A DNA stretch of 64,000 nt from Mobula hypostoma (Eukaryota), in contig NC_086097.1 in the NCBI RefSeq assembly GCF_963921235.1, forward strand, positions 15,004,001 through 15,068,000, given 5' to 3'. Every line of letters starts with the position of its first letter. Positions within the stretch are counted from its first letter, which is position 1. Of the stretch, positions 846 through 45,600 are shown piece after piece. The notes beneath the pieces were generated by a model. The model saw only the letters and a list, made by a program, of their open reading frames with translations. It was not told where the DNA came from and did not search any database. Made by a program: the position numbers and the translations under genes.

Positions 846-944
846 TTTTTGAGTTCAGCACAAGAGTGTGAGATGTAGGACCTGTTCTTGCACTGTACTA
901 TTTTAAGTTTTAAAACATGTAACAAAATTTTAGAAATGTGACAC

Positions 945-1090
945 AGACAACAGAAAATCTGCAGATGCTGGAAATCAAAATAATACACACAAAATGCTGG
1001 AGGAACTCAGCAGGCCAGGCAGCATCTACGGAAAAGAGCAAACAGCTGATGTTTTGGGCCAAGACCCTTCATCAGGACTGAGAAGGAAAG
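945..1090 (-). mobile_element. Penelope-like terminal-repeat fragment with degenerate hammerhead motif
   Basis: Minus strand 1080-1043 reads CAGTC CTGATGA AGGGTCTTGGCCC AAAACATC; same repeat family as 1769-2207, 32140-32525 and 45230-45600. Confidence 0.75.
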
Positions 1091-1768
1091 GGCATTTTAG
1101 CTTTTTATATATATAAAAAAATACAGCATCCCTGTCTAAAATAGCACAGGAGAGAAAATTTGTATAATACATATATTTAAAAACCTGCCTGTCAGGTAAA
1201 GTAGTACAAATCAGAAAGATGAAACACAAATTTATTTTGCTCTCACACCACAAGCTTAAGGAAATAATCCTTATATAGTTGAAATTGATTTAAGAAATGG
1301 GAATTATAAATCATGAGAATGTTTGTAAGGAATAAACTTTGCTCACATTAAGTTGAGCAATGTTTTGTTTTGGAAGATGAGATATTGTTGCACATTAAAC
1401 ACAAACGTTCCACTTACTGCAAAGAAGATCTAACCTTTTAACAGACCCAGATTTACTTGTTGCTAAATAAAGACTGGCTGAGATCACTGTATTCACAGTG
1501 TCAAATTGCAGCATCAGAATACCTACCATTTTAAGATAGCTGTGCATATGTAAAATTAGCTGGAATGCAAGGTATGTGGGTAGTCAATGGATTAAACAAA
1601 TATATGTGTTAAAGCTGCATGCCACAAAATAATGCAGAAGGCAAATGTAAACATTACTTATTGCTCATCTTATTTTTAAATTGTTAAGCTACAAATAGGC
1701 ACTGAATTCTAGGATTTTAAAAAACCTACCGCAGATAAGCACGTGCACACTGCTGAGACACTGTATTA

Positions 1769-2207
1769 CACATCAAAGTTGCTGGTGAACGCAGCAGGCC
1801 AGGCAGCATCTCTAGGAAGAGGTACAGTCGATGTTTCAGGCCGAGACCCTTCGTCAGGACTAACTGAAGGAAGAGTTAGTAAGAGATTTGAAAGTGGGAG
1901 GGGGAGGGGGAAGAGGGAGATCCAAAATGATAGGAGAAGACAGGAGGGGGAAGGATGGAGCCAAGAGCTGGACAGGTGATTGGCAAAGGGGATATGAGAG
2001 GATCATGGGACATTTCTCCCCGGACCTCCTGTCCTCTCATATCCCCTTTGCCAATCACCTGTCCAGCTCTTGGCTCCATCCCTCCCCCTCCTCGGCCTGA
2101 AACGTCGACTGTATCTCTTCCTAGAGATGCTGCCTGGCCTGCTGTGTTCACCAACAACTTTGATGTGTGTTGCTTGAATTTCCAGCATCTGCAGAATTCC
2201 TCGTGTT
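1769..2207. mobile_element. Fold-back Penelope-like terminal-repeat insertion (nested inverted repeats)
   Basis: Outer arms ~1769-1845/2091-2168, inner arms ~1944-2002/2032-2090; degenerate TSD TGAGACACTGTATTA (1754-1768) / TGAGACACGGTACTA (2208-2222). Confidence 0.8.
1825..1861 (-). ncRNA. Minimal type I hammerhead ribozyme motif (Penelope-associated), near-intact copy
   Basis: Minus strand AGTC CTGACGA AGG-GTCTCGG-CCT GAAA CA TC GACT(G): stem I AGTC/GACT, core CUGANGA and GAAA, stem II AGG/CCT, AUC triplet. Confidence 0.72.
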
Positions 2208-3644
2208 TGAGACACGGTACTAACTTGCAAGGAAACGTTATGTGTACTCTCAGTTCACGAGGCAGACTGGAAGCGCTAAAATCAGATAAAAATACAGGAA
2301 ATGAGCTGTGAGGTTCATTAAAATCTTGCTGAAAATAGGTACTAATGGAAAGAACTGATGAGATAGACATGAGAGGATGAACACAAAACATTTTGTGACC
2401 AAGGTTTTGTGTCATAGTATCACTTTGCTTTCAAATGTTCTTTCATATCCATCTCATCCCTTCATCGACAGAATTTTATCCTTTTTTTAAAAAAAAATCT
2501 AGGATTGGTTTGGTCGTTGCCTCTTTAGCTTTCAAATTTAGTGATACAGTGTGAAGTTGGTCCTTCAAGTCGCAGAACCCCAGCAACCCTGACAACACCG
2601 ATTTACAGTCGGAGAAGGCTGGTTTTAGCACCAGACACTTTTACCCCGGTGAACAATAATGCTGCGATTTCTTCACTGTGGAGTTAACGATAGATTTTCA
2701 TTTAAAGGATTTATGATTAGATTTGTTCATAGAATATAAATTGAGTATCTGATCTTATATTTTCAAAAGGAACAAAAATCATGAACATTGCTTCCAGGAT
2801 ATAACAGATTTTTAATTGAATCAAATCCCAAGAAACTGTAGTGGCCATCTGAAATAGATTACTACTCTGAAATCCCACAAAATTTAAAGTCACTAATTTA
2901 AATCATTTAAATGCACGTAATTGTTCCCATAGATTGAGAAGGTATATAAATTAGTGACTGGAAAAAAATCTTCAGCTAGAAAAAATTGAAAGGTCTTTGA
3001 GCTGAAACACTCACTGCTTCTATTTCCACAGATGCTGTCTGAGAGCAATAAGATAAAAAAGTAACAAAATACATATTTCTTCACATTCTGTTTTGGCTAG
3101 GTAACAAATGTTTAAGGACGAAAACAAATGTACTAGTTTAAATTGGAGTGAGTCTGGAAAAAAGTGTGATTTCACTTTATATCTATCTAAAATAAAATAT
3201 TAACTCAAGCAGCAATAATATTTTCTATGTACTTATCAATTATTTATCTCTTGATAAATTCATAGAAAACCAGTCAATGTTAGTGAAGTCATAATAACCT
3301 TTATTATAAATACTTTTCCTACTGCAAAAACAAAACAAATCTATCTCTCTCTCATTAAACTAATTGATTCTTAATCCGGCTCAACTCGTTAAGCAAATGA
3401 CAGAGGGAGGAACATACAAGGTCTTAAATAAACTGGATTTGAAAAACATTTCTTAACTATTTCATTACTGAACAGATAATTTTAATGTCTAGCCCTTCAT
3501 AATTTTTCCCTAAAAAACTGCAATTATCTTATCACTACGTTATTTTCTCTCCTAATATCCACGAATGCCTTCCATATCACATCTTCATATCCTTCATAGA
3601 CAAACAGGTGCTCATCTTCAACAAATTATCATGGCATAAATAAT

Positions 3645-3830
3645 CGCAAACAACAGGAATTCTGCAGATGCTGGAAATTCAAGCAACACACATCAAAGTT
3701 GCTGGTGAACGCAGCAGGCCAGGCAGCATCTCTAGGAAGAGGTACAGTCTCGGCCTGAAACGTCGACTGTACCTCTTCCTAGAGATGCTGCCTGGCCTGC
3801 TGCGTTCACCAGCAACTTTGATGTGTGTTG
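3645..3830. mobile_element. 186-bp fold-back Penelope-like insertion with 14-bp TSD
   Basis: Perfect 66-bp inverted arms 3684-3749/3765-3830; TSD ATGGCATAAATAAT at 3631-3644 and 3831-3844. Confidence 0.88.
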
Positions 3831-5682
3831 ATGGCATAAATAATGTCAATTTATTTTACAACATTTTACACCAGTGGAGATGGGAGTCTGATTTTAATTT
3901 TCAACCTTCTTCCCGCTTAGAAACATTCATTATTCCCTGTAGTTTAACTTCTCTAATGTGTGCTTATATTTTTGTATGATCACCTATATATGTGTAGTTG
4001 TTCAGTAAATGTAGTACAGCTGATTCTGCAATTTTCCAGAAGCTTCTTAGATTCACGTGGCATAACAATGCTGCAGAAAAACTATTTCATTGGTTGTTGT
4101 GGTGGATGTCTTGTCATCTTTCTAGTTTGAGCTAGTTTTTTTAAACATTGGATGTTCATAACTTTTCTTTGTTTTGCTCTTCACTCTTATTACATTTAAT
4201 AAATAGCCATAACCACCAACTTTTTTGCCTTGTTCTTGATGGCCAAAGAACCTTTGGATCGCAAATGCACCAGGATCCAAAGTCAGCTTTGACAAGATAA
4301 CTAGGCTAGGTGGATGAAACTCAAATGATTTCCCTTTCTGGTACTTCGAGTATACTTAAAATCTGACTGATAATTCAATAGCTTCCGTTTATTAAATGCT
4401 ACACAATGTTGGACATTTTATAAAATAACAAAATTTATGCAAGAAATTCATTTATTTCTAAATGTAACAATGCAATTGTAAGCTACAGAAATACTGTACA
4501 CAATTTACAACCATTTAGAAAGTTTTGTACTCTTAATTTTTCCTGTACTTCTGCTGGCAGACAGTAAGAGTGTAACTAACAGTGAAACTAGGTAGTGTTA
4601 CTTTCCCGACAGTTGAACATGGGAAAAGAAAGTTACGTTTTGTCATTCATCTGGTGCACCTGCAAACTCTTCTTAGCTGGTTTCTGGTGGATTATTGCAG
4701 ATTATCATTGTGACTGCAGTATTGATTCCAAATTACTGCTTTACCTTCAAAGAACTATATAACGCTCAAGTTTATAACTTAAACAATGGTGAAACCACTA
4801 TTCCTTCTAAGCTACGCAGTAACTGCAACGCTCCCACACATATAGCTTTTGTTACCATGCAACTAGAATTTTTTAAAACATCTTAATACAATTTCAAAGT
4901 ACACTAATATAATTTTGAAATCTGTATTAATATAATCAACCTTTAAAACGTTTCAGAGCTTCACCATATTTACATTGCCAGTATTTCAAGTTACAACACT
5001 GTTACAAATTGTAACAATAAACACAGAATAGAAGTTGGTAGCTCACTGTTAATAAAACATTGGCCTGCTGGATGCCAACACTGTCTAGTCAAAACATTTC
5101 ACTTTTGCCATTATGCCTGTCAGTTGGTTTAACTGCTTGACATCGTTTGCTTCTGTTGTGGGTTGTGGTACGTGCTTGTTGTGAAAAATTCTATTTCTGA
5201 CTTTTTTGGTAGGTAATCTTTCCAAAAGAAATCATAATATATAGACATAGAAAACCTACAGCACAATACAGGCCCTTCGGCCCACAACGTTGCAATATAG
5301 CAAGAATTAATTAAAAATTGTTAGATCAACAAAAAAAAACATTTAAAGTGCCGCACTGTTTACAGCTCATGTAAAAATTTCCTGTTCAGGGCAATGGTCA
5401 GTCTGCACAGCTGTAAAAAAAAAGTTAGCGGGATTGTTGGGTGAAGCAGTTCAAAGGGTGTTTTTCTCCTCTATATGCACTGCATTCAACCATGTGCACA
5501 GAAAACGAATATGACGCTACCTATTTGCAATAGGACTGCTAGCAGACGCACAAATTATTCCATGCAGATAGACAATGATGCTCCATATTAGCAGATGAAC
5601 CTTTTAGTTAAAAGGCCACTGTTCCAATATCTGAAAGATTTTAATTGCTTGATTTTTTTTAAATGGGTGCAGTTGCATCATA

Positions 5683-6492
5683 TACTCAGTGGCCACATAA
5701 TTAGACACACCAATATTTTCTACTGCTTGAGCCCATCCACTTCAAGGTTCAATGTCTTTTGCGTTTAGAGATGCTCTCCTGTATACCACTATTGTAATGT
5801 GTGGTTACTTCAGTTCCTGTTACCTCTGACCTCTCTCATTAACAAGGCGTTTTCCCCCACAGAACTACCACTCACTGGATTTTTTTTGTTTTTTTGCATC
5901 ATTATATGTAAACTCTAGAGACTGTTGTGCATGAAAACCCCAAGAGATCAGCAGTTCCTGACACTCAAACCTCAATATCTGGCACCAATAATCATTCCAC
6001 GGTCAAAAATGCCACTTAGTTCACATTTCTTCCCCATTCTGACGTTTGGTCTGAACAAAAACTGAATCTCTTGACCATGTCTGCAGACCTTTAGATATTG
6101 AGTTGCTGTCATATAACTAGCTGTTCAGATGTTTGCATTAACGAGCAGAGCAGGGGTACAGGTATACATAATAAAGTGGCCAAGTGTTTAAGGTGTTCGT
6201 CTAGTGATTCGAAGGTCGCTTGTTCGAGCCCTGGCTGAGGCAGCGCATGTCCTTGAGCAAGGCACTTAACCACACATTGCTCTGCGACGACACCGGTGCC
6301 AAGCTGTATGGGTCCTGTAATGCCCTTCCCTTGGACAACATCGGTGTCGTGGAGAGGGGAGACTTGCAGCATGGGCAACTGCTGTTCTTCCATACAACCT
6401 TGCCCAGGCCTGCACCCTGGAAACCTTCCAAGGCGCAAATCCATGGTCTCATGAGACTAATGGATGCCTATATATAAAGTGGCCACTGAGAG
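5683..6492. mobile_element. Non-autonomous Tc1/mariner-like element, interrupted by a SINE in its right TIR
   Basis: Ends CTCAGTGGCCACATAATTAG ... ATAAAGTGGCCACTGAG with TA nearby on both sides; related remnant near 27088-27170. Confidence 0.72.
6176..6473 (+). mobile_element. tRNA-derived SINE (CORE-like body, RTE-like tail)
   Basis: A box TGGCCAAGTG and B box GTTCGAGCCC; GTCCTTGAGCAAGGCACTTAACC core; tail GTCTCATGAGACTAATGGATGCC; duplication ATAAAGTGGCCA at 6171-6182 and 6474-6485; second copy at ~16403-16682. Confidence 0.8.
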
Positions 6493-6726
6493 TATATCAG
6501 AGCCTCGTTTACTATAAAGTACCATAACTGAAGTTGGAGCTCCCTTTGAAAGCATGACAGATGTCATTACAATCTAATATCAAGAGTTATGAGCAGGCAT
6601 GAAATAATTACAGCTATTTCAAAACTAAAAGTCAACACATGTTAGCAAAGACACTAAAGTCTGCAGGCAAAACTATTGCATAGATAGGATAGCAGATAAA
6701 GGAGGTTTTTAAAAAAAAAGGCAAAC

Positions 6727-6875
6727 CTTAATGTCTTTAGTTGCCTTTAAACCATAACCCTCTTCTGGGAAATAAGTAATTTCAAAACCTTCAGTTGAGG
6801 CTCCACAGTCAGCCGCCCACTGCAGTAGTTCATCAAAGTGGTTTTCTCTGTTCCCATCAAAGATAACCGATAAAC
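6727..6875 (-). CDS. SETD3: SETD3 third coding exon (149 nt, start of SET domain); later exons not found, presumably left of the window
   Basis: (G)LSVIFDGNRENHFDELLQWAADCGASTEGFEITYFPEEGYGLKATKDIK; acceptor tttAG, donor AAG|GTTTGC. Confidence 0.95.
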
Positions 6876-9478
6876 CTAAATTATCACAAATCACAAAGTA
6901 ACTTAAAATCGTAATAGTTAAGCAAAGGGAAAGCTTATTAACGAGGAAAAACAGCGAGATAAAAACAAAACAAAACTCATCTGGTAATAGGCATTTAAAA
7001 AATGCTATAAAAAGGATCACGTAGCTTTGGGTAGACTCACAACTGCACAGTGACAAGTTTGCACAAGAATTACAATATACACAATCCATAAGAATTTGGT
7101 GCATCATATTCAATTAACTGAATGCTGGCACCAAATGGTCATGCTGCATAATCTGATGGGAGAAGCACACCAACTGAGTCGTGAATGGCCAACCCTTTAC
7201 TTTGAGGCTGTCATCGCAGTTCCTAGATTGTTCAGTCTGAGAAAACAGAAGGTCTTGCAGGATGGTTAGAGTTATAATATTTCAAAGAAATTGCCTCTCG
7301 GTCTTCAAGTTCACAAGACCATAGCTCCACTTCTTTAAGCCCAATCAATTCGGTTTAAGAATTTCTTGTGAGACACTATCAAAAGCCTTCTGAAAATACA
7401 AATACAACACATCAACTGGTTAATCCCCATCTAAGGTGTTACATACAACCGCAACGTCCAAAAGGTTGCCAATCATGACTTCCTTTCATAAATCCATGCT
7501 GATTTGCCCTAGTTCTATGATTTTCTAAGTGCAATGTTTATCATTTCCTTAATAATATATTAAACCACATTTTTGCTACACGTCTTGCTTACTATAATTC
7601 CTTACTTTCTCTCTACTTCCTTTCTCCATTCCCATCTTTCAATCTGAGGAAACTGTGCTAGAATTAATGAAATTTTTGAATGATGATAACCCGTACATCT
7701 ACCACAGACCGAGGATACAGGTTATCAGAACCCAGAGAGTTATTACACTGCCATTAATTTCTTCAATAACTTTTTGCTGATTCCTTTATTTTTTAGGTAG
7801 TTTATTCATTCGGCAATTGCAATTTTCTATTATTTGCAGATGTGATGACAGGTTCTGAACATTTACACATTTCTTTTTCTGCCATTTCTACATTTCCACA
7901 ATGCAAAACTTCTTATCTCAGACCTCAGGAGACTCTCATTAACTTCAGCTAATTTTTTCCTCACTTTTTATATACATCTATTCCCCTCCCCCACAAAGCT
8001 TGCCTACTCTTATGTTGTATTTTCCGCATTTCTGCTCAGATGCCTTAATCTGCCATTGTGATTTCTGAGAGTTTGCCAATATTCAGACTTCTTGCTCTTG
8101 TATTTGAAAATTATTTGTTTTATTTAGATGCAAGACTCCCAGTTTAATTTCTAAGTAAATTATATAAAATTAAATGGAATTATGATCATCATTTACTAAG
8201 TGCAGCTTAGTGAATCATCAATTAACACCTTCTTAAACAAGGTTATTCCCTAATTTGTTCCTCAAAATACTGATCCAGAAAATCATCTCTTATAGACGAT
8301 GGTGCATTTTTCCTCTATTGTATCAATATTACTTTGGTTTGTTCAGCCTTTATGTAGATTTTAATCCCCCAAAATACTGTATTACCATTAAATGTTTGAC
8401 TTATACTATGCCCTGCATTGCAACTGTTTGGGGGTCTATGGACAACTCCCACCAAACTTCTCCACCCCTCAAAAATAGATGAAATTTTATATTCATCAGC
8501 CAGAATCACAGCAAACTCTTGCAATTCATGCACTGACTGAAATTTAATTATACAGAATGTTCCTACCCAACCTAACAAAAAGTAGTCAATGAAAGGACAG
8601 AAGCTGGGGGATGTACATTGGAACAAGTGCACTATACTAAAATGTTATTCAACTTACAAACACTTGCCAAGTAAATTCCTAGTCTTGTTCACAAAAAGCA
8701 GTATAGCTCTAATACAGTTATAACCACATTCATCTACCCTCAATCAGCATCAGAATGTTGGTCGAGGTCATGTATGAGGTTATTAAGCAGTACCCAATGC
8801 ACTTGCTAATAACCTTACAGTTGATGCTCATTCTGTGTTCTACCAATATCATTTTGGTCCAAGGATCGTTATAGCCTTGGTCCAAACAGAAATAAACAAA
8901 CCAAATTTCAGAGCTCAGATGAGAGTAATAGCTTTTGAGATCAAGGCAGCATTATTTTTTTAATGTGACATCAGGAATTTCTGTAAAATTAGTGGACCTT
9001 GGTGCTTGGTTGGGGGTTTGGCAAGAGTGAAAAATCACTGACTACAATTGTACCTCATACAAAAGATGGCTGACAAAGCCCATCATCTGTCACCAAAAGA
9101 TTGCTGTGGGAGCTTTTTAATGCTGTGCTTTAGGCCCATTCTTCCTCATCTACTTTACCAATAACCTTCCTTTCATCACATCAGAAGTATGGGTGCTCAT
9201 TAATAACTGCATACGCAAGTCACTATCAGATTTTTTTCTCTACTATAATATTACTAATACTGGATCACTTAACTTTATCCAAGTCTATTCTTTCTATTTT
9301 TGACTTAATAGCTTAGTGACAGAATGCAGGAAATTAAGCATCCAAATGTGTTCCCATTTTCAATCTGTTCCAATTTTAATGTTACTGGTTAGCAATTGAC
9401 AGTGACGTGGGGTCAGCCAGAGTTTGAATACATGCATAGAGAACCCATAACACAAAAAAGAAAATTAGCCACCCATAC

Positions 9479-16402: not shown

Positions 16403-16682
16403 GGCGCGTGGCCAGGTGGTTAAGGTGTTGGTCTAGTGATTTGAAGATCGAGCCTCAGCTGAGGCAGCGTGTGTGTCCTTGAGCAAGACACTTAACCACA
16501 CATTGCTCTGCGACGACACCAGTGCTAAGCTGTATCGGCCCTAGTGCCCCTCCCTTGGACAACATTGGTGGTGTGGAGAGGGGAGACTTGCAGCATGGGC
16601 AACTGCCGGTCTTCCATACAACCTTGCCCAGGCCTGCGCCCTGGAAACCTTCCAAGGCGCAAATCATGGTCTCATGAGACTA
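16403..16682 (+). mobile_element. Second copy of the tRNA/CORE-like SINE
   Basis: Colinear with 6176-6473. Confidence 0.85.
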
Positions 16683-23459: not shown

Positions 23460-25125
23460 ACAGAAAGGGTAGAACGAGAGAACACACACTGGTCCTCATC
23501 AAGGGATCAGTAGTGGAAAGAATGTGCAATTTCCAGTTTCTTTGTGTCAACATATCTGTGGATCCATCCCAAACCCAACATATCGATGTAGCTACAAACA
23601 AGGCTCGACAGTGGCTATATCTCATTAGGAGTCTGAGAAGAATTGGTACGTCACCAAAGACACTCACAAATTTCTACAGCTGTACCATGGAGAGCATTCT
23701 AACTGGCTGCATCACCGTCTGGTTGGGGGGTGGGGGCTACTGCACAGGATCAAAATGAGCTGCAGAGAGTTGCAAACTCAGTCAGCTCCATCATGGGCAC
23801 TAGCCTCCATAGTATCCAAGACATCTTCAATGAACGTTGCCTCAAAAAGGTGGTATCCATCATTAAGGACCACCCCACCCCACCATCACCCAGGTTATTA
23901 AATGCAGCATCTCCAAGTTTGCGGATGACACGAAGCTAGGTGGCAGTGTTAGCTGTGAGGAGGATGCTAAGAGGATGCAGAGTGACTTGGATAGGTTGGG
24001 TGAGTGGGCAAATTCATGGCAGATGCAATTTAATGTGGATAAATGTGAAGTTATCCACTTTGGTGGCAAAAATAGGAAAACAGATTATTATCTGAATGGT
24101 GGCCAATTAGGAAAAGGGGAGGTGCTACGAGACCTGGGTGTCATTATACACCAGTCATTGAAAGTGGGCATGCAGGTACAGCAGGCGGTGAAAAAGGCGA
24201 ATGGTATGCTGGCATTTATAGCGAGAGGATTCGAGTACAGGAGCAGGGAGGTACTACTGCAGTTGTACAAGGCCTTGGTGAGACCACACCTGGAGTATTG
24301 TGTGCAGTTTTGGTCCCCTAATCTGAGGAAAGACATCCTTGCCATAGAGGGAGTACAAAGAAGGTTCACCAGATTGATTCCTGGGATGGCAGGACTTTCA
24401 TATGAAGAAAGACTGGATGAACTGGGCTTGTACTCGTTGGAATTTAGAAGATTGAGGGGGGATCTGATTGAAACGTATAAAATCCTAAAGGGATTGGACA
24501 GGCTAGATGCAGGAAGATTGTTCCCGATGTTGGGGAAGTCCAGAACGAGGGGTCACAGTTTGAGGATAGAGGGGAAGCCTTTTAGGACCGAGATTAGGAA
24601 AAACTTCTTTACACAGAGAGTGGTGAATCTGTGGAATTCTCTGCCACAGGAAACAGTTGAGGCCAGTTCATTGGCTATATTTAAGAGGGAGTTAGATATG
24701 GCCCTTGTGGCTACGGGGATCAGTGGGTATGGAGGGAAGGCTGGGGCGGGGTTCTGAGTTGGATGATCAGCCATGATCATAATAAATGGCGGTGCAGGCT
24801 CGAAGGGCCGAATGGCCTACTCCTGCACCTATTTTCTATGTTTCTATGTTATGCCCTGTCCTCATCACTACCATCTGGTAGGAGATACAGAAGCCTGAAG
24901 GCACACACTCAACAATTCAGGAACAGCTCCTTCCCCTCTGCCATCCGGTTTCTGAATGGACACTGAACCCATGAACTCTACCTCACTACTTTATTTCTAT
25001 TTTGCACTACTAATTTAATTATTGCATACATTTATTGTAATTCACTTTTGTTCTACTGTAGTGTACTGCTGCCGCAAAGACAACAAATTTCACAATGTGC
25101 CAGTGACATTAAACCAGATTCTGAG
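23460..25125 (+). mobile_element. Rex1/Babar-type LINE 3' fragment split by a CR1 insertion
   Basis: KARQWLYLIRSLRR...FYSCTMESILTGCITVW before 23896; resumes ALSSSLPSGRRYRSLKAHT after 24848. Confidence 0.85.
23897..24848 (+). mobile_element. Young 5'-truncated CR1 LINE (RT C-terminus and 3' UTR)
   Basis: ISKFADDTKLGG...WQMQFNVDKCEVIHFG...LYKALVRPHLEYCVQFWSP open to stop 24757; (TTTCTATG)n tail. Confidence 0.93.
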
Positions 25126-27446
25126 TAGGTCACCTAGCTCCTCAAGCCTGCCCTGCCATTCAACACAATTAAGACTAATCCGCCTCAGGACTCAGCTCTT
25201 CTTCCATTGCCAGTTCCCTCAGGCTTCTCAAACCACTGATCTTTCAAAAATAAAATCTATTAGCCTTCTCCATAAATAGTCCCATTCAATACCTCTAATG
25301 ACCTAGCCTTCACAACATCCCAGTGCAGATAACATGAAAAGAAACATTAGATATTTTTGTCACATGTACACGGAACCTTTTTTGCCCGACGCCGGCCCCC
25401 TAGGCCTGAGTCGGCGTCGTAGTAATAGTAGTACATGGAACATACAGAGAAGTGCATCATTTACGTCAAATCAAATCAGTGAGGATTGTGACAGGCGGCC
25501 CACAAGCATCACCACACTTCCGGCAGCAACAGAGCAAGTCCACAACTTACTAACCCTAACAGTAAGTCTTTGGAATGTGGGAGGAAACTGGAGCATTTTG
25601 AGAAAACCCACGCTGTAACGGGGGAAAAGTACAAACTCCAGAAGGAACTGAACCCTGATCTCACGAAGCATTGCACTGACCTCCAGCAAATATGCCGCCT
25701 CAGAGAACCACCATCCTCTGAGACAACTCAAACAATACTCATTCAGCTGGACTTTGGCTACTTTCCAAAAAGAATTAGCATTGAGGCTTGGGCAACGCTG
25801 GTAATGAAAGCACATTACCAGGCCTTAACTGCACTTGGTGCTGAGCCATCTTCATAAATTCTTTAGCCAAAGGGCAGCAAATCCATGGAATTCATTGCCA
25901 CAGGTGGTTGTGGAAGCCACACCATTGAGTATATTTAAAGCTGAAGCTGACAGGTTCTTGATTATTCAGATCATCAAAACTTATGTGGAGAAGGCAGGAG
26001 AATGAGGATAAGCAGGATAATAAATCAGACATGATGGAATGGCGGAGTATACCCGATGGGCCGAGTGGCCTAATTCTGCTCCTGTGTCTTATGACCTAAT
26101 TGCCAAGTCCTTGGAGAAAATACTTACATGCTGCTATTGTGTAGGGAGTTCCAGGATTAGACCCAGTTTACAATTAAAGGCTAAATTGGTATTCTGTGCA
26201 GCTTGAGTGGAATTTACCAGTGGTAGAGCTCCTGTATGCAGGCTGCTCCAGTTCTCCTTGTCAGTAAAGGTTAAGAATTTGAGAGATGCTGTCCAAGTAC
26301 TCTACAAGAATAAATGAAGTTTACTGGTTTGATGGTAAACATAATACCGTGTGCCAAGGTATAAGAAATTAATACACAAAGTAGTAGAAAGAAATAGGCT
26401 GTTTTGTTCTGGATGGTGATGAACATCTAGACCAGCTGAATTTCTGGTCAATGGCAAACACCAAGATCCTGATGATAGGGTTCCTCATGAAAATATTACA
26501 ATGAAACATCAAGGGTTAGTGGTTCAACTTCCTCTTGTTACACATTGCCTTTGCTTGGGACTGGTATGTCATGAATGCCACTCATTAGCCTTTACGTCAA
26601 TATTGCCTGTGGATTGCTTCATTTATTGAACAAAGAACAGTTGAGGAGTTTCAAAATAAATTGTAAACACAAGAGATTTCTGCAGATGCAAGTCAGAGCA
26701 ACAAACCCAAAATGCTGGAGCAACCCAGCAGTTCAGGCAGCAGCTCTTGGGGGAATGAACAATTGCTGTTTTCGACCAAGACCTTTCATCAGGACTCAGA
26801 AGCAACTGAGTATTGTGCAATGATCAAAGTACATTTTTGACTACTGGATGGAAAGAAGCACACATTCCTTAAATGAATAAAGCAAAGCTATGGCATTACT
26901 GAATGGGGGAGCAAGTCGGAGACTGATCTACTAATCCTGCTTCCCATTTCCTTGTGCTTGTACTTATTCCAGTGTCTGTTAATTTTTTCAGGAATGAGTG
27001 ATTGGAACAGTAGATTTGTTCACATCAAGCTCCTGCAAACAGCTGATAATCACCAGGTAATCTGTTTGGACAGAAATTATGGATCGATATACACTCACTG
27101 GCCACTTCACACTGGTTCATTAATGCAAATACCTAATCAGACAAGCATGCGGCAGAAATTGAATGCATAGAAGGTCAAAGTAAATTTATTGCCCAAGGAC
27201 ATACATGTCACCAAATATAACCCCAAGATTTGTTTTGTTGCAGGAATACTTGGTAAATCCAAGAATCATTGCAAGCTAATTTCCAAGCTCAGCGAACACC
27301 ACAACATCAATAGACAATAGATACAGGAGTAGGCCATTCGGCCCTTCGAGCCAGCACAAACATAATAGGATCAATGAAAGACCACACCCAACAGGGCAGA
27401 CAAGCAACCAATGTGCAAGAGACCCAACAAATTGTGCAAACACAAA

Positions 27447-28580: not shown

Positions 28581-31500
28581 GTCACACCAACTATTGACAT
28601 GATTTTGTTGTTTGTTGTTTACTGCTCTTTATAGTAATCTTTTTCATATTTAAAAGTTTTCCATTTCATCATTTTTGCAAGCATCTTCGCTTTAGAGATG
28701 TTTTTTTTACGTGTCTAAGACTTTTGTTTCGTACTATATCTACTTTTCGTAATTCTTTTAGCCACCTTGCAACTCAATTGCCTTTGCTCATTATGACTGT
28801 AGCAGTACCTTCTTCCTTATAAGAAACGGATTCAAAAATTCTGTAAGCATTCTTGAAGAGCTAGTCAACTTTTACTATCATGTACCGTGTCCTATGACGT
28901 GGGCGTCATGGTCTTTCCATGACCACAATTTCTACAGAAGTGGTTTGCCATTGCCTTCTTCTGGGCAGAGTCTTTACAAGACGGATGACCCCAGCTATTA
29001 TCAATACTCTTCAGAGATTGTCTGCCTGGCATCAGTGGTTACATAACCAGGTCTTGCGATATGCACCAACTACTCATATGACCATCCATCATCTGCTCTC
29101 ATGGTTTAACATGACCCTGATCGGGGGCTAAACAGGTGCTACACCTTGCCCAAGGGTGACCTGCAGGCTAGCGGAGGGAAGGAGTACCTTACACCTCCTT
29201 TGGTAGAGACGCATCTCCACTCCACCAGCCTGTCCCTAATAAGCTCCATCCTTACTGGTGCTACCTTTTTACTATTTACGTGCTTGCTGTGGAGCACAAA
29301 AAGTTTTGAAAAACAATAACAGGAATATTGGGGTACCACCGTAACATAGTGGTTTGTGTGACAATATTATAGTTTGGGAGAAAAGTTCAGAATTCAACTC
29401 CAATGTCATCCATACGTTCTTCCTATGAGAGCATGGGTTTCCACCAGGTGGTCTGGTTTCCTACCACAGTCCAAAGATGGACCAGTTAGTAGGTTAACTA
29501 GTAAACTGTGCTGTAAATAGACTAGGTTAAATAGCTGGACTGTGGTTCATTGGGCTAGAAGGGCCTGTTCCACATTGTACTCTAAATAAATAAAATATGT
29601 GGAGGCCAAGTCATTGGGTATATTTATTGGCAAGGTTGATAGACCTTTAATTAGTCAGGGCATGAAAGGGTTACGGGGAAAAGGCAAGAGATTCGGGCTG
29701 AGAGGGAAATGGATCATCCACGATGAAATGGCAGAGCAGAATTGATGGGCCAAGTGGCCTAATTCTCCTCCTACTGTATATCTTATGGTCTTGTACAGTC
29801 ATAATTAGTGTACATCTTGTATATAGACATACCAAAGATAAAATTCTTTAAAAAAAACGTCACCAATACTAGGAAGTGAAAACGTATTTGGAATGCAGGA
29901 TTAACACACACAGATCTTAATCTCTTTTACTTGAATTCAGTCTTTCCCGGCTATTCCTACTTGCTCCATCGAACTGGTTTTTAAAATTCTATCTCAGTGA
30001 CCCAATCACTGATTTTGTGTTGATGGAGCTATTCCTCCTGAACGATAAATCTATCCTCGTTCACAGTCTGTGGTCGCTCCCATTGCTTATCCAAGCTGTG
30101 ATTCTCATCAAATACCATTACATTTTTGATTTTGTAACCAAATTCTAACCCACTTCAATGTCAAAATGAAATCATTTAAAATGCCCAAACAGTAAAAGTG
30201 CCCCAGTTTCTTTTTGCTCCAAAACCTGCTAGATCTGTTGTAAACTAGAGTTAGAAAAGAAATTGATCAATAGCAAGATGGGAGGTCTGGCTGATATCAA
30301 CGAGACTGCAGTACAACATTCTGCTTGTCAGTGGTGCTTCAGTTGGCGGCATTTTAACCTTTGAATCAGTGGGTTATGAGCTGAATTCCCACTCCAGCAA
30401 GCGGATTATAAAAAAATATCTGGACTGAACACTAATCCCTCCCCAAGTGTCGGTCAGAAGGGCCTTCTTCCATCTAAGACTTTCCACCTATTCTCCAAAT
30501 CAGAGACAGATGTCAAGTAAAAGAGTCAAATGGATCAACTGTAAATGATAGCAGGGTGGAAGCTGGTAGCAGAGGTAAAACTACTTTAAAAATTCTCTAC
30601 GAGTGCAGGAAGCAGCACCAATTCATTCAGCAATGTAACAGAAAAATAGCAAGCTGAGAGGTAGCACCATGCTGTGTGTACAATGAACAGCCAGGCATGC
30701 AAGTTGCTTCAGGCTGAGGGAAAACAGGTAGAATTTGAGAAGGTGTTAGCATCAAAGGCGTGGTGATACTTGCATCGTTTGCATTAACAACCAACATACC
30801 CGAGGAAGTGCCCCCAGCACTTCTTGAGTGTATTGGTTGTTAACACAAATGATTCATTTTATTACGTTTCAATGTACATGTGTAAAACTGTCAGAGGAAA
30901 GCAGCATCCATCACAGATCCTCACCACCCACGTCATGCTCTCATTTTGCTGCTGCCATCGGGTCGAAAGTACAAGAGCCTCAGGACTCACACCAGCAGGT
31001 TCAAGAACAATTACTACCACTCAACCATCAGGCTCTTGAACAAAAGGGGATAACTTCACTAGCCCCATCATTGATATGCTTTAACAACCACTTTAAGGAC
31101 TCTTTATCTCATTATCTCTTGCTCTCATTATTTATTGCTATTTGTTTATATTTGGATTGGCACAATTTGCTGTCTTCTGCACTCTGGTTAATCTATCATT
31201 GATCTATAGTTACTATTCTATAGATTTGCTGAGTATGCTCACAAGGAAATGAATCTCAGGGTTGTATATGGTGACATTGATGAAATGTGAGATACATAAA
31301 TATAGATAGAGAGAGAGAGAAAAGAAAGAATAAAGTTAATGCTTTAAAGTCAATGATTCTTCATTGGAACGTTGACTTTAGTAAAATTTACTTTGAACTC
31401 TGAAATAAACCTGAATCTAATGCAGGGACCAAGTGAAGACAATGGTGGGCTTCTGTCTAAGGAGAAGTTCTTCAAACCATCATGGTGTGTCTGGAGGTAT

Positions 31501-32139
31501 AAAAGGTATGAATAACCATGGTGAAGATAAGCTGGAAGGAACTAGGAAACTGGAAATAGTCAAAGTGGTGGAAGGTATCAGAGGTATCATGGAAGGGTCT
31601 GCATAATGAAAGAAAAACAGAAACTCAAGGTAGGAAAAACTTATTCTTTGAGGTAAGAACAAGCTAAACCAATGGATTTGCCAGAATACTTCCACTTTTA
31701 GACTTTGGCAAGTGAATAGAAGATGGATGCAAACGATTCAGATACTATGAGACAGTAGGCTGGTGGAAGACAATCTCCTATGGAAATGAGTACTATGACT
31801 TTTTGGGAGAATTTGGCTTGGGGTGACACGACCCAGTGGGAAATATGAGGAGGTGACTGAGAAATGACACTCAAGGTACGGAAGGGTCAGTTTGTCAAAT
31901 CACATCACCTCCCAGTCAGAAGAATCCAGAACAACATGAGGATTGGTCATGAGTGAGAACAGTATTGCACACTCAGAGAGTTCACGACTTTTAACATCTC
32001 GATTTTGCAGCAACAAATTTTCAGTTTCTTTATGAGCAATTAAGATCATCTAGGCATGAAATTAAAACATTGCATTTGCAGAAGTTCCCCACCATCTATC
32101 TGAGGAACATCACCAAAACCAAGCAAATCCTGTTTTAAG

Positions 32140-32525
32140 CAACACACACAGAACACTGGAGGAACTTAGCAGCATTTATGGAAATGAATAAACTATCAAC
32201 GTTTCGGACCGAGACCTTTCTTCAGGACTGGAAAGGAAGGGGGAAGATACCAGAGTGAAAAGGTGGGGAGCAGAGAATGACGATAGCTGGAAGGTGGTAG
32301 GTGAAGCCAGGTGGGTAAAAAGGTCAAGGTCTGGAGAAGAAAGAATCTGATAGGAAAGGACAGTGGACTATAGGAGAAAGGGAAGGAGGGCAGGACCCAA
32401 GGGCAAGTAGCAGGCAGGTGACAAGAAGTAAAAGGTCGGGGAGGGGGAGGGGAACAGAGGGAATTGATCACTGGAAGGAGAAATCGATATTAATCCCACC
32501 AGGTTGGAGGTTGCCCAGACAGGAT
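32140..32525 (-). mobile_element. Penelope-like 3'/terminal-repeat fragment with hammerhead-like motif at 32193-32230
   Basis: Minus strand CAGTC CTGAAGA AAGGTCTCGGTCC GAAACGTT GATAG; colinear with 45170-45600. Confidence 0.75.
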
Positions 32526-40825: not shown

Positions 40826-41913
40826 GTATCCTTTTGAATGTCCTTTTAATGCTATGTCATTGAATATAAAGATGTCAAACAGGACTGAAAGATCTCAGTA
40901 ATGAAGAAGAAAAGGTTCTGAAAGGGTAGGCAAGCCATTTGTGGTCTGAAATGCCATTTACTCCATAATTTATGTTGAACTCGAAGTTATTTAGTGTATT
41001 GTCTAGTTACTAGGTTTTATCTCCAGGCTAATGATAAACCCAGTCAAGTCTAAAAGTCCATGTCCAGTAAAGCTCTAAGAAGTTATAAAGAAAGATTGAG
41101 CAGGTTAGGACTTTATTCCTTGGAGCGTTGAAGTTTGGGGTGAGATTTGCTAGAGGTATACAAAATTATGAGAGGGTTGGATCAGGTAAATGCAAGCAGG
41201 CGTTTTGCACTGAGGGACTACAACTAGAGGTCATGTCTTCAGGGTGAAAGGTTTAAGGGAAGCTTGAAAGGAAACTTCACTCAGATAGATGTGAGCATGT
41301 GGAACAAGCTGGCAGCATAAGTGGTGCATTCGAGCTCGATTTCAACATTTAAGAGAAGTTTGGATAAGTACATGGATGGGAGAAGTATGAAAGGCAAGGG
41401 TCGCAGTGCAGGTCGATAGGAGTAGGCAGTCTAAATGGTTCAGCGCAAACTAAATGGAGCTATTCTGTGCTGTACTTTTCAATGACTACTAACTATTGCA
41501 GCTTTCATCTAATTATTAATCATAGACTCGTACAACATAAAATAGACTCTGAGGGTTGAACTCATCCATACAGCCATGACCCTATCTATACTAATTTACC
41601 CTATCATTATTATTGTTTACTTGGCTAATCAGTGTTACATTCACTGCTCTTTTTAACTTCTGTTTTAATATTCCCAATCGAAATTCAGAAATGTATAATG
41701 AATTATTTCACACTTATCCCACTCTAGAAATAAATTAAAATTTGCTGTTTTGTCCTAATAATCCCTCTTGTGAGCTGCATGCTTTGTCTGGTGTCTTTAG
41801 TCATCCTTAATTATCCTTACATGTTAATGTTGTGGCATGTGCACACTATAAACACGAGATTCTGCAGATGCTGGAAATCAGAGCAACACACAAAATGCTG
41901 GAGGAACTCAGTC

Positions 41914-44410
41914 AAAGTTCAAAATAAACGTATTATCAAAGGGCATATACGTTGCCACATACAACCTTGAGATTTAATTTCTTGCAGACATACTCAGCAA
42001 CTCCATAATAAAATAATAGCCATAATAGAATCAATGAAAGACTGCACCAACTGGACATTTAATTAGTGTGCAAAAGACAACAAACTGTACAAATACAAAA
42101 AGAAAGAAATAATGTTAATAAATAATAAATATTGAGAATATGAGATGAAGAATTCGTGAAAGTGGGTCCATAGGTTTTGGGAACATTTAAGTGATGTGGC
42201 AAATGAAGTTATCCCCTTTGGTTCAAGAACCTGGTGGTCCAGGGGTAGTAACTGTTCCTGAGCCTGATGGTGTGAGTCCTGAGACTCCTGTACATTCTTC
42301 CTGACATAACCTACGTGACGGGGGCCCCTCATGATGGCTACTGCTTTCCTGCAACAATGCTCAGTAATGAGGAGGGCTTACCCTGTGATGGACTGGGCTG
42401 TATCCACTACTTTTTTTTTTAAGATATCGCGTTCAAGGGCATTGGTGTTTCCATACGAGGTCATGATGCAACTAATCAATGCACTCTCCATCACACATCT
42501 ATAGAAGTTTGTCAAAGTTTTAGATGCCATGCTGAATCTTTGCAAACTCGTGAGGAAGTAAGGGTGTGTGCTTTTTTTCATAATTGCATTTGCAAGACAA
42601 GCCCTCTGAAATTATAACATTGAGGAATTTAAAGTTGCTGACTCTCCCCACCTCTGATCCTACAATGAGGACTGGCTCATGGACCTCTGGTTTCCTCCTC
42701 CTGAAGTCAATGATCAGCTCCTTGGTCTTGCTGATATTGAATAAGGAGTTGTTATCACACCCGGTGTTAGGTAAATTGAAGGGATTAAAGGCAGATAAAT
42801 CCCCAGGGCCAGATGGTCTGCATCCCAGAGTGCTTAAGGAAGTAGCCCAAGAAATAGTGGATGCATTAGTGATAATTTTTCAAAACTCTTTAGATTCTGG
42901 ACTAGTTCCTGAGGATTGGAGAGTGGCTAATGTAACCCCACTTTTTAAAAAAGAAGGGAGAGAGAAACCAGGGAATTATAGACCGGTTAGCCTAACATCG
43001 GTGGTGGGGAAAATGCTAGAGTCAGTTATCAAAAATGTGATAACAGCACATTTGGAAAGCGGTGAAATCATCGGACAAAGTCAGCATGGATTTGTGAAAG
43101 GAAAATCATGTCTGACGAATCTCAGAATTTTTTGGGGATGTAACTAGTAGAGTGGATAGGGGAGAACCAGTGGATGTGGTATATTTGGATTTTCAAAAGG
43201 CTTTTGACAAGGTCCCACACAGGAGATTAGTGTGCAAACTTAAAGCACACGGTATTGGGGGTAAGGTATTGATGTGGATAGAGAATTGGTTGGCAGACAG
43301 GAAGCAAAGAGTGGGAATAAACGGGACCTTTTCAGAATGGCAGGCAGTGACTAGTGGGGTACCGCAAGGCTCGGTGCTGGGACCCCAGTTGTTTACAATA
43401 TATATTAATGACTGGGATGAGGGAATTAAATGCAGCATCTCCAAGTTTGCAGATGACACGAAGCTGGGTGGCAGTGTTAGCTGTGAGGAGGATGCTAAGG
43501 GGATGCAGGGTGACTTGGATAGGTTAGATGAGTGGGCAAATACATGGCAGATGCAACTTAATGTGGATAAATGTGAGGTTATCCACTTTGGTGGCAAAAA
43601 CAGGAAAACAGATTATTATCTGAATGGTGGCCAATTAGGAAAAGGGGAGGTGCTACGAGACCTGGGTGTCATTATACACCAGTCATTGAAAGTGGACATG
43701 CAGGTACAGCAGGCGGTGAAAAAGGCGAATGGTATGCTGGCATTCATAGCAGGAGGATTCGAGTACAGGAGCAGGGAGCTACTACTGCAGTTGTACAAGG
43801 CCTTGGTGAGACCACACCTGGAGTATTGTGTGCAGTTTTGGTCCCCTAATCTGAGGAAAGACATCCTTGCCATAGAGGGAGTACAAAGAAGGTTCACCAG
43901 ATTGATTCCTGGGATGGCAGGACTTTCATATAATGAAAGACTGGATCAACTAGGCTTATACTCGTTGGAATTTAGAAGATTGAGGGGGGATCTGATTGAA
44001 ACGTATAAGATCCTAAAGGGATTGGACAGGCTAGATGCAGGAAGATTGTTCCCGATGTTGGGGAAGTCCGGAACGAGGGATCACAGTTTGAGGATAAAGG
44101 GGAAGCCTTTTAGGACTGAGATGAGGAAAAACTTCTTCACACAGAGAGTGGTGAATCTGTGGAATTCTCTGCCACAGGAAACAGTTGAGGCCAGTTCATT
44201 GGCTATACTTAAGAGGGAGTTAGATATGGCCCTTGTGGCTAAAGGGATCGGGGGTATGGAGGGAAGGCAGGTACAGGGTTCTGAGTTGGATGATCAGCCA
44301 TGATCATACTGAATGGCGGTGCAGGCTCGAAGTGCCGAATGGCCTACTCCTGCACCTATTTTCTATGTTTCTACCACTCGGCCAGATTTTCAATGTCCCT
44401 CCTATATGCT
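41914..44410 (-). mobile_element. Rex1/Babar-type LINE fragment split by CR1
   Basis: KTLTNFYRCVMESALISCIMTSYG (42378-42581); sequence resumes after the CR1 tail (CCACTCGGCCAG..., cf. 58910-58945). Confidence 0.78.
42762..44372 (+). mobile_element. Young 5'-truncated CR1 LINE, RT domain with one frameshift near 43130
   Basis: KSPGPDGLHPRVLKE...NYRPVSLTSVVGK...YLDFQKAFDKVPH...GVPQGSVLGP..F...FADDTKLGG; TTTCTATGTTTCTA tail. Confidence 0.94.
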
Positions 44411-45600
44411 GCTTGCTGGAATAAGTGCCATGAGGGAGATTAGTGAGGGGGGATGAATGGACAAGGAAATCAGAGGGAGTGAACCTGCAGAAAGCAGAGA
44501 GTGGGGGGTTAGTAAACGGGGCCTTCGGGTATCTCCACATGGTGGGGGGGGCTGAATCTTTGAGAGTGTGAGGGAGGTAAAGATGTGTTTGGTAGGGTTC
44601 CTTTGAAAATGGCGTAAGTTATGGAGCAAGATATCTTGCATGCGTGGAACTCTATCCCTGTTAAAGCAGTGAGAAGATAGAGTGAACGTGGCTGTCCAGG
44701 AAATATCCTGTTGGAGATACGGGTCAAGGTAGCGTCAATGGTGGTGGAAGGGAAACCACATCCTTTGAAGGAGGAGGACATCTCTGATGTCCTGAAAAGG
44801 AACAGGGCCAGCAGAGAGGAAGGAACTGAGAAAGGCAATAGCTTTCTTAGAGGAGGCAGAGTGGGAAGAGTTTTAGTCAAGATCGTCATGAGAATCAGTA
44901 GGTTTATAAAAGATGTTGATAGTTATATCCTGAGAGATATATAGAAAGGGGAGAGAGGAGTCAGAAATGGATTTCATTAACTTTACCTCCAACTTTCATC
45001 CTGTCTTTAAAATCACTTGGTCCATTTGTCAAGCACCTTTCTTCATCTGCAAAAAACACACTTTCCCATGGGCGAACATTTCAATTCCAATTCCCATTCC
45101 CATTTCGACATGTCGGTCCATGGCCTCCTTTACTACCGCTCTCAGTTTGGAGGAGCAATACTTCATATCCCATCTGGGTAGCCTCCAGCCAGATGGCATG
45201 AACATCAATTTCTCCAACTTCTGGTAATTTTTCTCCTCCCTCACTCTGGCCCTCCTCTTAACTCTTCACCTCACCCTGCCTATCACCTCCCCCTGGTACC
45301 CCTCCTCCTTCCCTTTCTCCTATGGTCTACTCTCCTCTCTTACCAGATTCCTCCTTCTCCAGTCCTTTACCTTTGGTACTTACCAACTTCCAGATTCTTA
45401 TTTCTTTCCTTTTCCCCCACCAGGCTGGCTTCACCTATCACCTTCGCACTTGTAATCCATCTCCTCCCCTACCTTCTTATTCGAGCATCTTCCATCTTCC
45501 TTTCCAGTCCTAATGAAGGGTCTCAGTCTGAAACATTGACTGTTTATTCCTTTCCATAAATATTGCCTGATCTGAGTTCATCCAGCATTTTGCATGTATA
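44411..45600. mobile_element. Rearranged Penelope-like retroelement (minus ORF remnant ~44411-44966, plus remnant and terminal repeat ~44967-45600)
   Basis: DFINFTSNFHPVFKITWSI (RT-like) and LEEQYFISHLGSLQPDGMNINFSNF (C-terminus typical of the GIY-YIG region); degenerate hammerhead CAGTC CTAATGA AGGGTCTCAGTCT GAAACATT GACTG at 45505-45542; inverted terminal-repeat piece at 41851-41912. Confidence 0.75.

What the first reader, a model, noticed from the sequence alone, without database searches (positions are those of the whole stretch)
1825..1861. Recurrent minimal hammerhead ribozyme motif in Penelope-like terminal repeats
Seen: one repeat family carries the consensus CAGTC-CTGANGA-AGG(G)TCTCGGCC(T/C)-GAAA-CG-TC-GACTG. 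Copies are at 1043-1080(-), 1825-1861(-), 26761-26797(-), 32193-32230(-) and 45505-45542(+), with 3' halves at ~2091-2111(+) and 3750-3769(+). This folds as a type I hammerhead: stem I CAGTC/GACTG, core CUGANGA and GAAA, short stem II, stem III reduced to the palindrome ACGT, cleavage after GUC. Established: Penelope-like elements carry minimal hammerheads thought to cleave as dimers. Inference: this genome holds a high-copy dispersed family of self-cleaving motifs that gene annotation would miss.
Basis: partly seen in the sequence, partly recalled or inferred. Interest (0 to 1): 0.72.

Follow-up and report, generated by a model that had tools for sequence, protein, structure and literature searches.

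The report
Hammerhead ribozyme of fish Penelope retroelement
The motif is a decayed copy of the tiny hammerhead RNA motif found at both ends of a very abundant Penelope-like jumping gene in this genome (likely a shark or ray); such motifs are already described and are predicted to self-cleave only weakly, and the one unusual point is an older subfamily that spread with a changed catalytic base (A6C).

Summary
The motif is real and is a minimal type I hammerhead in the pseudo-LTR (pLTR) of a Penelope-like element (PLE). Three of 20 fetched long copies have an unbroken 1,042-aa RT + Cys-linker + GIY-YIG frame with the motif on both sides, about 3.5 kb apart. The linker is Neptune-type. One 31-mer variant has 6,207 exact genomic matches, control 0. 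The architecture matches Cervera & De la Peña 2014, so this is a new member of a known kind; the scan noted the same kind in other shark-type genomes.

Copies decay neutrally. The motif is constant between subfamilies while the adjacent flanks change.

Extra: an older ORF-bearing subfamily mostly carries CUGCYGA (A6C; 43 of 100 listed older-type matches), a change reported to cut Mg2+ cleavage more than 10,000-fold in another hammerhead. Only 255 of 113,318 young 3' flanks begin at the cleavage site. Cleavage itself is untested.

The parts
1825..1861 (-). Minimal type I hammerhead motif, young subfamily: stem I 5' 1861-1858, core CUGACGA 1857-1851, unpaired A 1850, stem II/loop 1849-1838, GAAA 1837-1834, C-A-U-C 1833-1830, predicted cleavage between 1830 and 1829, stem I 3' 1829-1825. 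Position 16.2 decayed (ACAU).
1766..2207 (.). Inverted, 5'-truncated PLE insertion: minus arm 2012-1770 (pLTR -176..+60 from the cleavage site), plus arm 2013-2091 (-193..-106) joined to 2091-2209 (-15..+103, with tail)
   Evidence: blastn to natural copy L063, 85-92% identity
1754..1765 (+). Left target-site duplication (11 of 12 bases match 2208-2219)
   Evidence: sequence
2208..2219 (+). Right target-site duplication
   Evidence: sequence
2091..2111 (+). 3' half of the hammerhead in the plus arm; 5' half removed by an internal deletion
3645..3830 (.). Short palindromic PLE insertion: minus arm 3749-3641 (+1..+109), plus arm 3747-3830 (-17..+66), joined at a 3-base microhomology; holds the 3' half 3750-3769
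3631..3644 (+). Left 14-bp target-site duplication (identical to 3831-3844)
   Evidence: sequence
3831..3844 (+). Right 14-bp target-site duplication
   Evidence: sequence
941..1088 (-). Older truncated copy with decayed hammerhead 1043-1080 (G12 lost) and tail
   Evidence: 78% to L063
26665..26797 (-). Older truncated copy with decayed hammerhead 26761-26797
   Evidence: 71%
32174..32525 (-). Older copy: end of the endonuclease region (32520-32478), pLTR and hammerhead 32193-32230
45050..45599 (+). Older copy: C-terminal endonuclease remnant 45050-45206, pLTR, hammerhead 45505-45542 (G5A)
   Evidence: tblastn E 6e-13; blastn 77% and 71%
44421..44986 (-). Inverted arm of RT-thumb sequence next to the 45 kb copy
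   Evidence: tblastn E 1e-9
41851..41911 (-).

Best explanation
The motif is the minimal type I hammerhead that sits in both pseudo-LTRs of an abundant, recently active Penelope-like retrotransposon with a Neptune-type linker, and the window copies are decayed, truncated ends of that element. Shown: full copies are partial tandems with a repeat period of about 3,514 nt, hammerhead - 60 nt - ATG - RT - CX4CXXC linker - GIY-YIG - pLTR - hammerhead - tail; inserted arms end about 60-66 or 103-109 nt past the predicted cleavage site; many insertions are 5'-truncated and inverted, with 12-14 bp target duplications. Inferred from published PLE work: a transcript spanning both repeats would bring two motifs together, the ACGU palindromes would pair to form helix III, and cleavage after GUC would release a unit-length RNA; this is likely slow and protein-assisted, because the lone young motif is predicted to fold into an inactive hairpin. 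Inferred from junction counts: reverse transcription likely starts inside the tail and usually copies straight through an uncleaved (or religated) motif, which explains why hundreds of thousands of short dead copies carry it.
For: Motif in both direct repeats around an unbroken frame with YIDD and YIGET in L061, L062, L063 (3 of 20 long copies fetched; L069 and L077 have both motifs and an interrupted frame); units 3,514-3,519 nt and 98.9-99.1% identical; RVT_1 and GIY-YIG matches, both below Pfam cut-off for the full protein, GIY-YIG above cut-off in L003; motifs KPADKG, YIDD, CKRNKCYTC, GVIYCVRCSRCGLLYIGET, RFAEH, HFN. Same layout as the published consensus: CUGANGA-H, G10.1, GAAA-N-N-U-H, 4-5 bp helix I (PMC4209133). 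Position 7, the free core position, is the most variable in the core (0.46) while non-CpG core columns are 0.86-0.99 and columns just outside stem I fall to 0.41-0.66 in 109 copies. In contigs of three other coded organisms homology often stops exactly at the stem I borders (loose ends at 2579 and 2615). Monomer minimum-energy fold pairs core GACG with CGUC, 4 kcal/mol below the open core; the double-hammerhead form is about 10 kcal/mol above two folded monomers. Protein-assisted cleavage and two internal RT starts were shown for an Anolis PLE (PMC11167929).
Against: No cleavage assay and no usable RNA data. No compensatory double changes in stems I or II beyond CpG-type noise, so the fold rests on likeness to the published consensus, not on covariation here. 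No Rfam hammerhead match. A downstream block (+17..+43) is as conserved as the core, so conservation alone does not single out catalysis. An older subfamily spread with A6C. Clade placement as Neptune rests on the linker motif, not on a tree with named references.
Confidence: 0.88

Rival explanations
1. The motif descends from a hammerhead but no longer needs to cleave in this family; it is kept as a folded RNA or DNA element (protein binding, template or promoter signal).
For: A6C is the majority state of an older ORF-bearing burst; G10.1-C11.1 became G-U in the youngest subfamily; 255 of 113,318 young 3' flanks begin at the cleavage site; in Anolis, core mutants did not affect insertion in vitro and no reads ended at the site (PMC11167929).
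Against: All other core positions and the NUH triplet are unchanged between subfamilies whose proteins differ by 25-30% while position 7 varies freely; the youngest, most intact subfamily has the canonical core; the Anolis motif does cleave with protein. This rival keeps the identification and changes only the function.
Confidence: 0.3
2. The short copies are a separate non-autonomous family (retrozyme or SINE-like) that amplifies by itself.
For: Most copies are 100-450 nt; 3,382 short palindromic insertions match one pattern; animal retrozymes are proposed to derive from PLE pLTRs (10.64898/2026.07.22.740005).
Against: 5' ends are scattered and coverage falls smoothly from the 3' end into the ORF; inversion junctions differ from copy to copy; short copies share sequence variants with full elements; no head-to-tail arrays were seen in the loci held.
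Confidence: 0.06
3. The hammerhead likeness is chance in a repeat end.
For: No Rfam match; folding energy no better than shuffles (z 0.47 for the intact motif); no covariation.
Against: All 11 core bases, the H spacer, G10.1, palindromic 15.2-16.2 and both stems occur at the place where PLEs are known to carry hammerheads; 25 descriptor hits against 0 in shuffles.
Confidence: 0.02

Closest known systems
Minimal hammerheads (min-HHR) of metazoan Penelope-like elements (Cervera & De la Peña 2014, PMC4209133)
   Same: Type I; no real helix III (C-G-U-C after GAAA); unpaired base after CUGANGA; 4-5 bp helix I; in both pLTRs; most copies dispersed and single. The Acropora Neptune entry has the same CUGACGAA-GGG...GAAA-CGUC layout.
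   Different: Helix II is short (4 bp, two wobbles in the youngest form). The list of motifs in Fig. S3 as read has no cartilaginous fish. Copy number is higher than the 4,000-9,000 given for coelacanth and Xenopus. The core variant they describe is U3-A8, not A6C.
Neptune-clade endonuclease-positive PLEs (features as in Craig et al. 2021, PMC8557442)
   Same: Single ORF, RT then CX2-5CxxC linker then GIY-YIG with CCHH; pLTR by partial tandem; inverted 5'-truncated arms; tail at one end.
   Different: Not placed by tree against named references; tail about 40-45 nt.
Poseidon element of Anolis carolinensis (Frangieh et al. 2024, PMC11167929)
   Same: Hammerhead at the pLTR-ORF junction; two 3' end classes that bound the tail.
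   Different: Other clade (no Cys linker); there the ORF starts inside the hammerhead, here the ATG is 61 nt past the cleavage site.
A6C hammerhead of phage Bcep176 (PMC3088659, PMC7151607)
   Same: Core CUGCNGA.
   Different: A single monomeric phage ribozyme; here the change is the majority state of a retroelement subfamily with a minimal motif, and no activity is measured.
Non-LTR retrozymes of animals (10.64898/2026.07.22.740005)
   Same: Type I hammerhead related to PLE pLTRs; reported in one chondrichthyan.
   Different: Defined as tandem repeats without ORF; the copies here are dispersed truncations of an autonomous element.

Membership tests
PLE minimal hammerhead | Core CUGANGA ... 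GAAA-N-N-U-H | tested here: met
   Intact in full-length copies and in 41 of 109 sampled copies; all 11 core bases present at 1825-1861
PLE minimal hammerhead | Helix I 4-5 bp and helix II closing the core, unpaired base between 9 and 10.1 | tested here: met
   5-bp and 4-bp stems and A spacer
PLE minimal hammerhead | G10.1-C11.1 pair | tested here: inconclusive
   G-C in 44 and G-U in 38 of 100 copies with both letters; G-U is the state of the youngest subfamily; G-U also occurs in published entries
PLE minimal hammerhead | Palindromic 15.2-16.2 (ACGU) | tested here: met
   Met in the family's intact copies; not met in the named copy 1825-1861 (ACAU)
PLE minimal hammerhead | Located in both pLTRs of a PLE | tested here: met
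   L061, L062, L063, L069, L077 of 20 regions
PLE minimal hammerhead | Covariation in stems among family members | tested here: not met
   One-sided wobble changes only; double changes 0-1 per pair except CpG-type ones (4 at 10.1-11.1, 5 at 15.2-16.2) in 109 copies. The family is too uniform for this test; not a bar to membership.
PLE minimal hammerhead | Self-cleavage as dimer or with protein | not testable with these tools
   No assay; folding energies only
Endonuclease-positive PLE, Neptune type | RT followed by C-terminal GIY-YIG with CCHH motif in one ORF | tested here: met
Endonuclease-positive PLE, Neptune type | CX2-5CxxC linker between RT and endonuclease | tested here: met
   CKRNKCYTC at residue about 909; definition from PMC8557442 passages
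Endonuclease-positive PLE, Neptune type | Partial tandem pLTR, inverted truncated arms, tail | tested here: met
Endonuclease-positive PLE, Neptune type | RT phylogeny with named Neptune elements | not tested
   No clade-named reference sequences were held
Rfam hammerhead families | Covariance-model match | tested here: not met
   No hit in the window at E<=1 or in L063:2450-2800 at E<=10
Non-LTR retrozyme | Tandem ORF-less units each with a hammerhead | tested here: inconclusive
   None seen in the window or the 1.064 Mb sample; no genome-wide tandem search was run

The most novel reading that the evidence does not exclude
A whole burst of this retrotransposon, likely tens of thousands of copies with RT-endonuclease remnants, was driven by master elements whose hammerhead core read CUGCYGA (A6C). 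In other hammerheads that change nearly abolishes cleavage in Mg2+ but spares it in Mn2+. This genome would then hold a natural experiment showing that canonical hammerhead cleavage is dispensable for PLE retrotransposition in vivo, or that it is rescued by Mn2+ or the element's protein; A6C also removes the predicted inactive hairpin of the monomer.
Probability: 0.4. Interest if true: 0.52.

Novelty: new member of a known kind. Interest (0 to 1): 0.27.

Why it matters
As a kind it is known since 2014 and adds little: one more animal group with PLE hammerheads, at unusually high copy number. Its use is as test material for an open question, what the PLE hammerhead does in vivo. The genome offers near-identical intact elements (99%), more than 100,000 young insertion junctions, and side-by-side subfamilies with canonical and A6C cores. 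For annotation, the inverted insertions give false microRNA-precursor hits while the hammerhead itself is invisible to Rfam.

Tried and rejected
1) Rfam: no hammerhead family in the window or an intact copy; 37 weak hits in the window, nearly all microRNA models on the inverted arms, all below gathering score. 2) Covariation in stems: none beyond wobble and CpG changes. 3) Fossil of cleavage in insertion junctions: apparent 5' ends at +1, +3 and -2 from the site numbered 255, 129 and 89 among 113,318 matching flanks. The 2-3-fold excess shrinks after hand-removal of about 16 of 100 listed matches that start with A and about 10 of 100 that are single-base deletions, only three positions were compared, and microhomology with stem I confounds it: inconclusive. 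The local sample showed no pile-up at +1 (2 of 70). 4) Loss of C17 as a religation scar: among the first 100 of 249 single-base-shorter copies, about 10 lack C17, about 11 lack G+1, about 9 lack T+4, 3-6 each lack other bases, about 40 are in the A run (hand count): rejected. 5) One clade for A6C copies: rejected by the tree test (19 older C6 rows, p-AU 0.0001; 32 of 66 rows kept for having 200 nt of shared upstream sequence; only 4 of 29 inner branches well supported); C6 is the majority state of a star-like group, with sporadic C6 in young copies. 6) Selection on single copies: 0 of 270 non-CpG core bases differ in 30 young copies against 15 of 656 and 2 of 300 in flanks; base composition differs between these sets, so not used. 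7) Expression: no RNA holder listed; runs laid were contigs guessed to be RNA and cannot show ends or level. 8) Separate SINE/retrozyme family: rejected, see rivals. 9) Literature on cartilaginous fish: 'hammerhead ribozyme'+'elasmobranch' 0 papers; +'shark'+'retrotransposon' 3 papers, none on this by listing, one checked by passages; 'Penelope'+'shark'+'transposable element'+'Chondrichthyes' 4 papers, listing only.

Full report
Observation. The repeat is at all seven stated places. On the minus strand 1861-1825 reads stem I AGUC, core CUGACGA, an unpaired A, stem II GGGU/GCCU around CUCG, GAAA, then C-A-U-C and GACUG. The core is complete but the helix III palindrome is ACAU, a CpG-type decay of ACGU. 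The other four full copies are worse: G12 lost (1043), U16.1 lost (26761), stem mismatches (32193), G5A (45505). A strict descriptor found 25 motifs in 1.064 Mb (the window plus five 200-kb stretches), none in the window, and 0 in each of 10 shuffles; 24 of the 25 belong to this family. Rfam has no hammerhead hit in the window or on an intact copy.

Abundance. The genome has 3.48 Gb. One 31-nt variant matches exactly 6,207 times, control 0. A 22-nt pattern for the flank just past the cleavage site in young subfamilies matches 113,318 times (both arms of an inverted insertion count). A profile of the downstream flank alone found 175 hits in the 1.064 Mb sample, which extrapolates roughly to several hundred thousand copies. 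The best named protein relative is from the shark Chiloscyllium punctatum, 72% identical over 77% of the region searched, so the host is likely a cartilaginous fish; this is inference.

The element. Sequence upstream of the motif translates to RT thumb, a Cys linker and a GIY-YIG domain. Of 20 regions fetched around long frames, three (L061, L062, L063) have an unbroken 1,043-codon frame with YIDD and YIGET and the motif on both sides; two more (L069, L077) have both motifs and an interrupted frame; most others have the 3' motif, often with an inverted partner. The repeat period is 3,514-3,519 nt and four units are 98.9-99.1% identical, so the family was active recently. The ATG lies 61 nt past the predicted cleavage site. 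The linker CKRNKCYTC fits the CX2-5CxxC motif that separates Neptune (and Nematis) from Penelope/Poseidon (PMC8557442, 12 of 28 passages seen). No tree with named references was made.

The window insertions. 1766-2207 is an inverted insertion with a 12-bp target duplication (11 of 12): a minus arm from -176 to +60 and a plus arm from -193 to +103 with an internal deletion that leaves the 3' half at 2091-2111. 3645-3830 is a short palindrome with an exact 14-bp duplication and arms +1..+109 and -17..+66. One pattern finds 3,382 such short palindromes, with junctions that differ from copy to copy. Arms end either about 60-66 or 103-109 nt past the site, which matches the optional tail of PLEs and the two internal RT starts shown for an Anolis element (PMC11167929, parts 1-2 of 4 read). 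The long hairpin at 1942-2092 is the overlap of the two arms and explains the microRNA hits.

Conservation. Of 175 flank hits, 159 began near the motif and 109 spanned it as judged on non-core positions. Non-CpG core columns are 0.86-0.99 constant, G12 0.75 (CpG in part of the family), position 7 only 0.46; columns just outside stem I drop to 0.41-0.66. In 79 older copies the mismatch rate is 11.3% in the core, 10.4% in a downstream block (used for anchoring, so biased), and 39-43% beside stem I. So single copies decay neutrally, and the motif is an island that stayed fixed while subfamilies diverged. Part of the stems was used to select copies, which inflates their constancy. The same borders appear as loose ends in contigs of three other coded organisms. 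Stem changes are one-sided (C-G to U-G in stem I, G-C to G-U at 10.1-11.1); there is no compensatory covariation. 41 of 109 copies keep all core bases.

Mechanism. Published work found no cleavage by a single minimal motif and low cleavage by dimers and trimers (PMC4209133, parts 1-2 of 4 and supplement file 2 parts 1-2 of 3 read), and protein-assisted cleavage that was not needed for insertion in vitro (PMC11167929). My folding agrees with weak activity: the young monomer pairs core GACG with CGUC (-11.0 against -7.0 kcal/mol for the open core), and the double hammerhead (-11.5) lies above two folded monomers (-22.0); such models ignore tertiary contacts. I commit to slow, assisted, dimer-type cleavage of transcripts that span both repeats, while the template for most insertions is uncleaved or religated. 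Junction counts fit the second part: 255 apparent 5' ends at +1 against 129 at +3 and 89 at -2, out of 113,318; even after allowing for the roughly one in three to four of such junctions that the patterns can catch, that is about 1% or less. The modest excess at +1 is confounded and not claimed. A C17-deletion scar was looked for and rejected.

A6C subfamily. 11 of the 109 sampled copies have C at position 6. An exact 35-nt C6 pattern matches 113 times. Among the first 100 listed of 3,162 older-type matches with position 6 free, 53 have A, 43 C, 2 G and 2 T (hand count), so C is inherited, not noise. Many C6 loci carry RT-endonuclease remnants about 70-75% identical to the young protein. In a flank-only tree of 32 of 66 copies, 19 of 21 C6 rows fall outside the young clade, most in a star-like older group; strict monophyly is rejected (p-AU 0.0001) and support is weak. 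In a type II hammerhead A6C cut the rate in Mg2+ more than 10,000-fold relative to Mn2+ (PMC7151607, passages), and the natural phage A6C ribozyme is slow (PMC3088659, passages). C6 also removes the predicted inactive hairpin. Whether these motifs cleave is unknown. A search for 'hammerhead'+'A6C' gave 8 papers, none on retroelements by listing.

Comparison and novelty. The motif meets the sequence and position features of the PLE minimal hammerhead; activity could not be tested. The 2014 list as read has no cartilaginous fish, a 2026 preprint reports retrozymes in one chondrichthyan (part 1 of 5 and passages read; its supplements were not seen and may list such motifs), and my searches found no paper on this family. 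Subscription papers and Repbase/Dfam were not searchable. Earlier notes of this scan report the same kind in other shark-type genomes; they are unchecked and did not set my score.

Verdict. Real, correctly identified, new member of a known kind; the named copy is likely inert. Interest 0.27. The boldest reading still open is the A6C burst as a natural test of whether cleavage matters (probability 0.4, interest 0.52).

Noticed in passing
window 1942-2092 and 3711-3803: Inverted arms of PLE insertions form long hairpins that give many sub-threshold Rfam microRNA-precursor hits (best E 5e-17, below gathering score); a source of false microRNA annotation.
   Followed up: yes
L196-L255; sample copies such as C9 101138, C12 184035: Older subfamily with A6C core; part of it also has the stem II loop UUCG instead of CUCG, which is rare with A6 in the list.
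   Followed up: partly
L063 2627-2653 (+17..+43 past the cleavage site) and the tail to +109: A block downstream of the hammerhead is as constant as the core across subfamilies and the tail is predicted to form a stem-loop; candidate protein-binding or RT-initiation element.
   Followed up: partly
C9 sample, minus strand, descriptor hit 17: One descriptor hit outside this family (8-bp helix II, 21-nt insert); may be another PLE family's hammerhead or chance.
   Followed up: no
window 30528-30637 and 31493-31820 (-): Weak RT-like remnants (33-42% identity to the young protein), probably a more distant PLE or LINE copy.
   Followed up: no
window 23892-24191 / 43420-43719; 24725-24846 / 44252-44373; 6318-6441 / 16542-16665: Other young repeat families (94-96% identical pairs), and many short shared 3'-end-like repeats (families D3, D4, D8, D16), unrelated to this finding.
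   Followed up: no
   Followed up: partly
L062 about 2626-2636: The 5' repeat of this intact element has a small insertion/replacement between hammerhead and ATG that its 3' repeat lacks.
   Followed up: no
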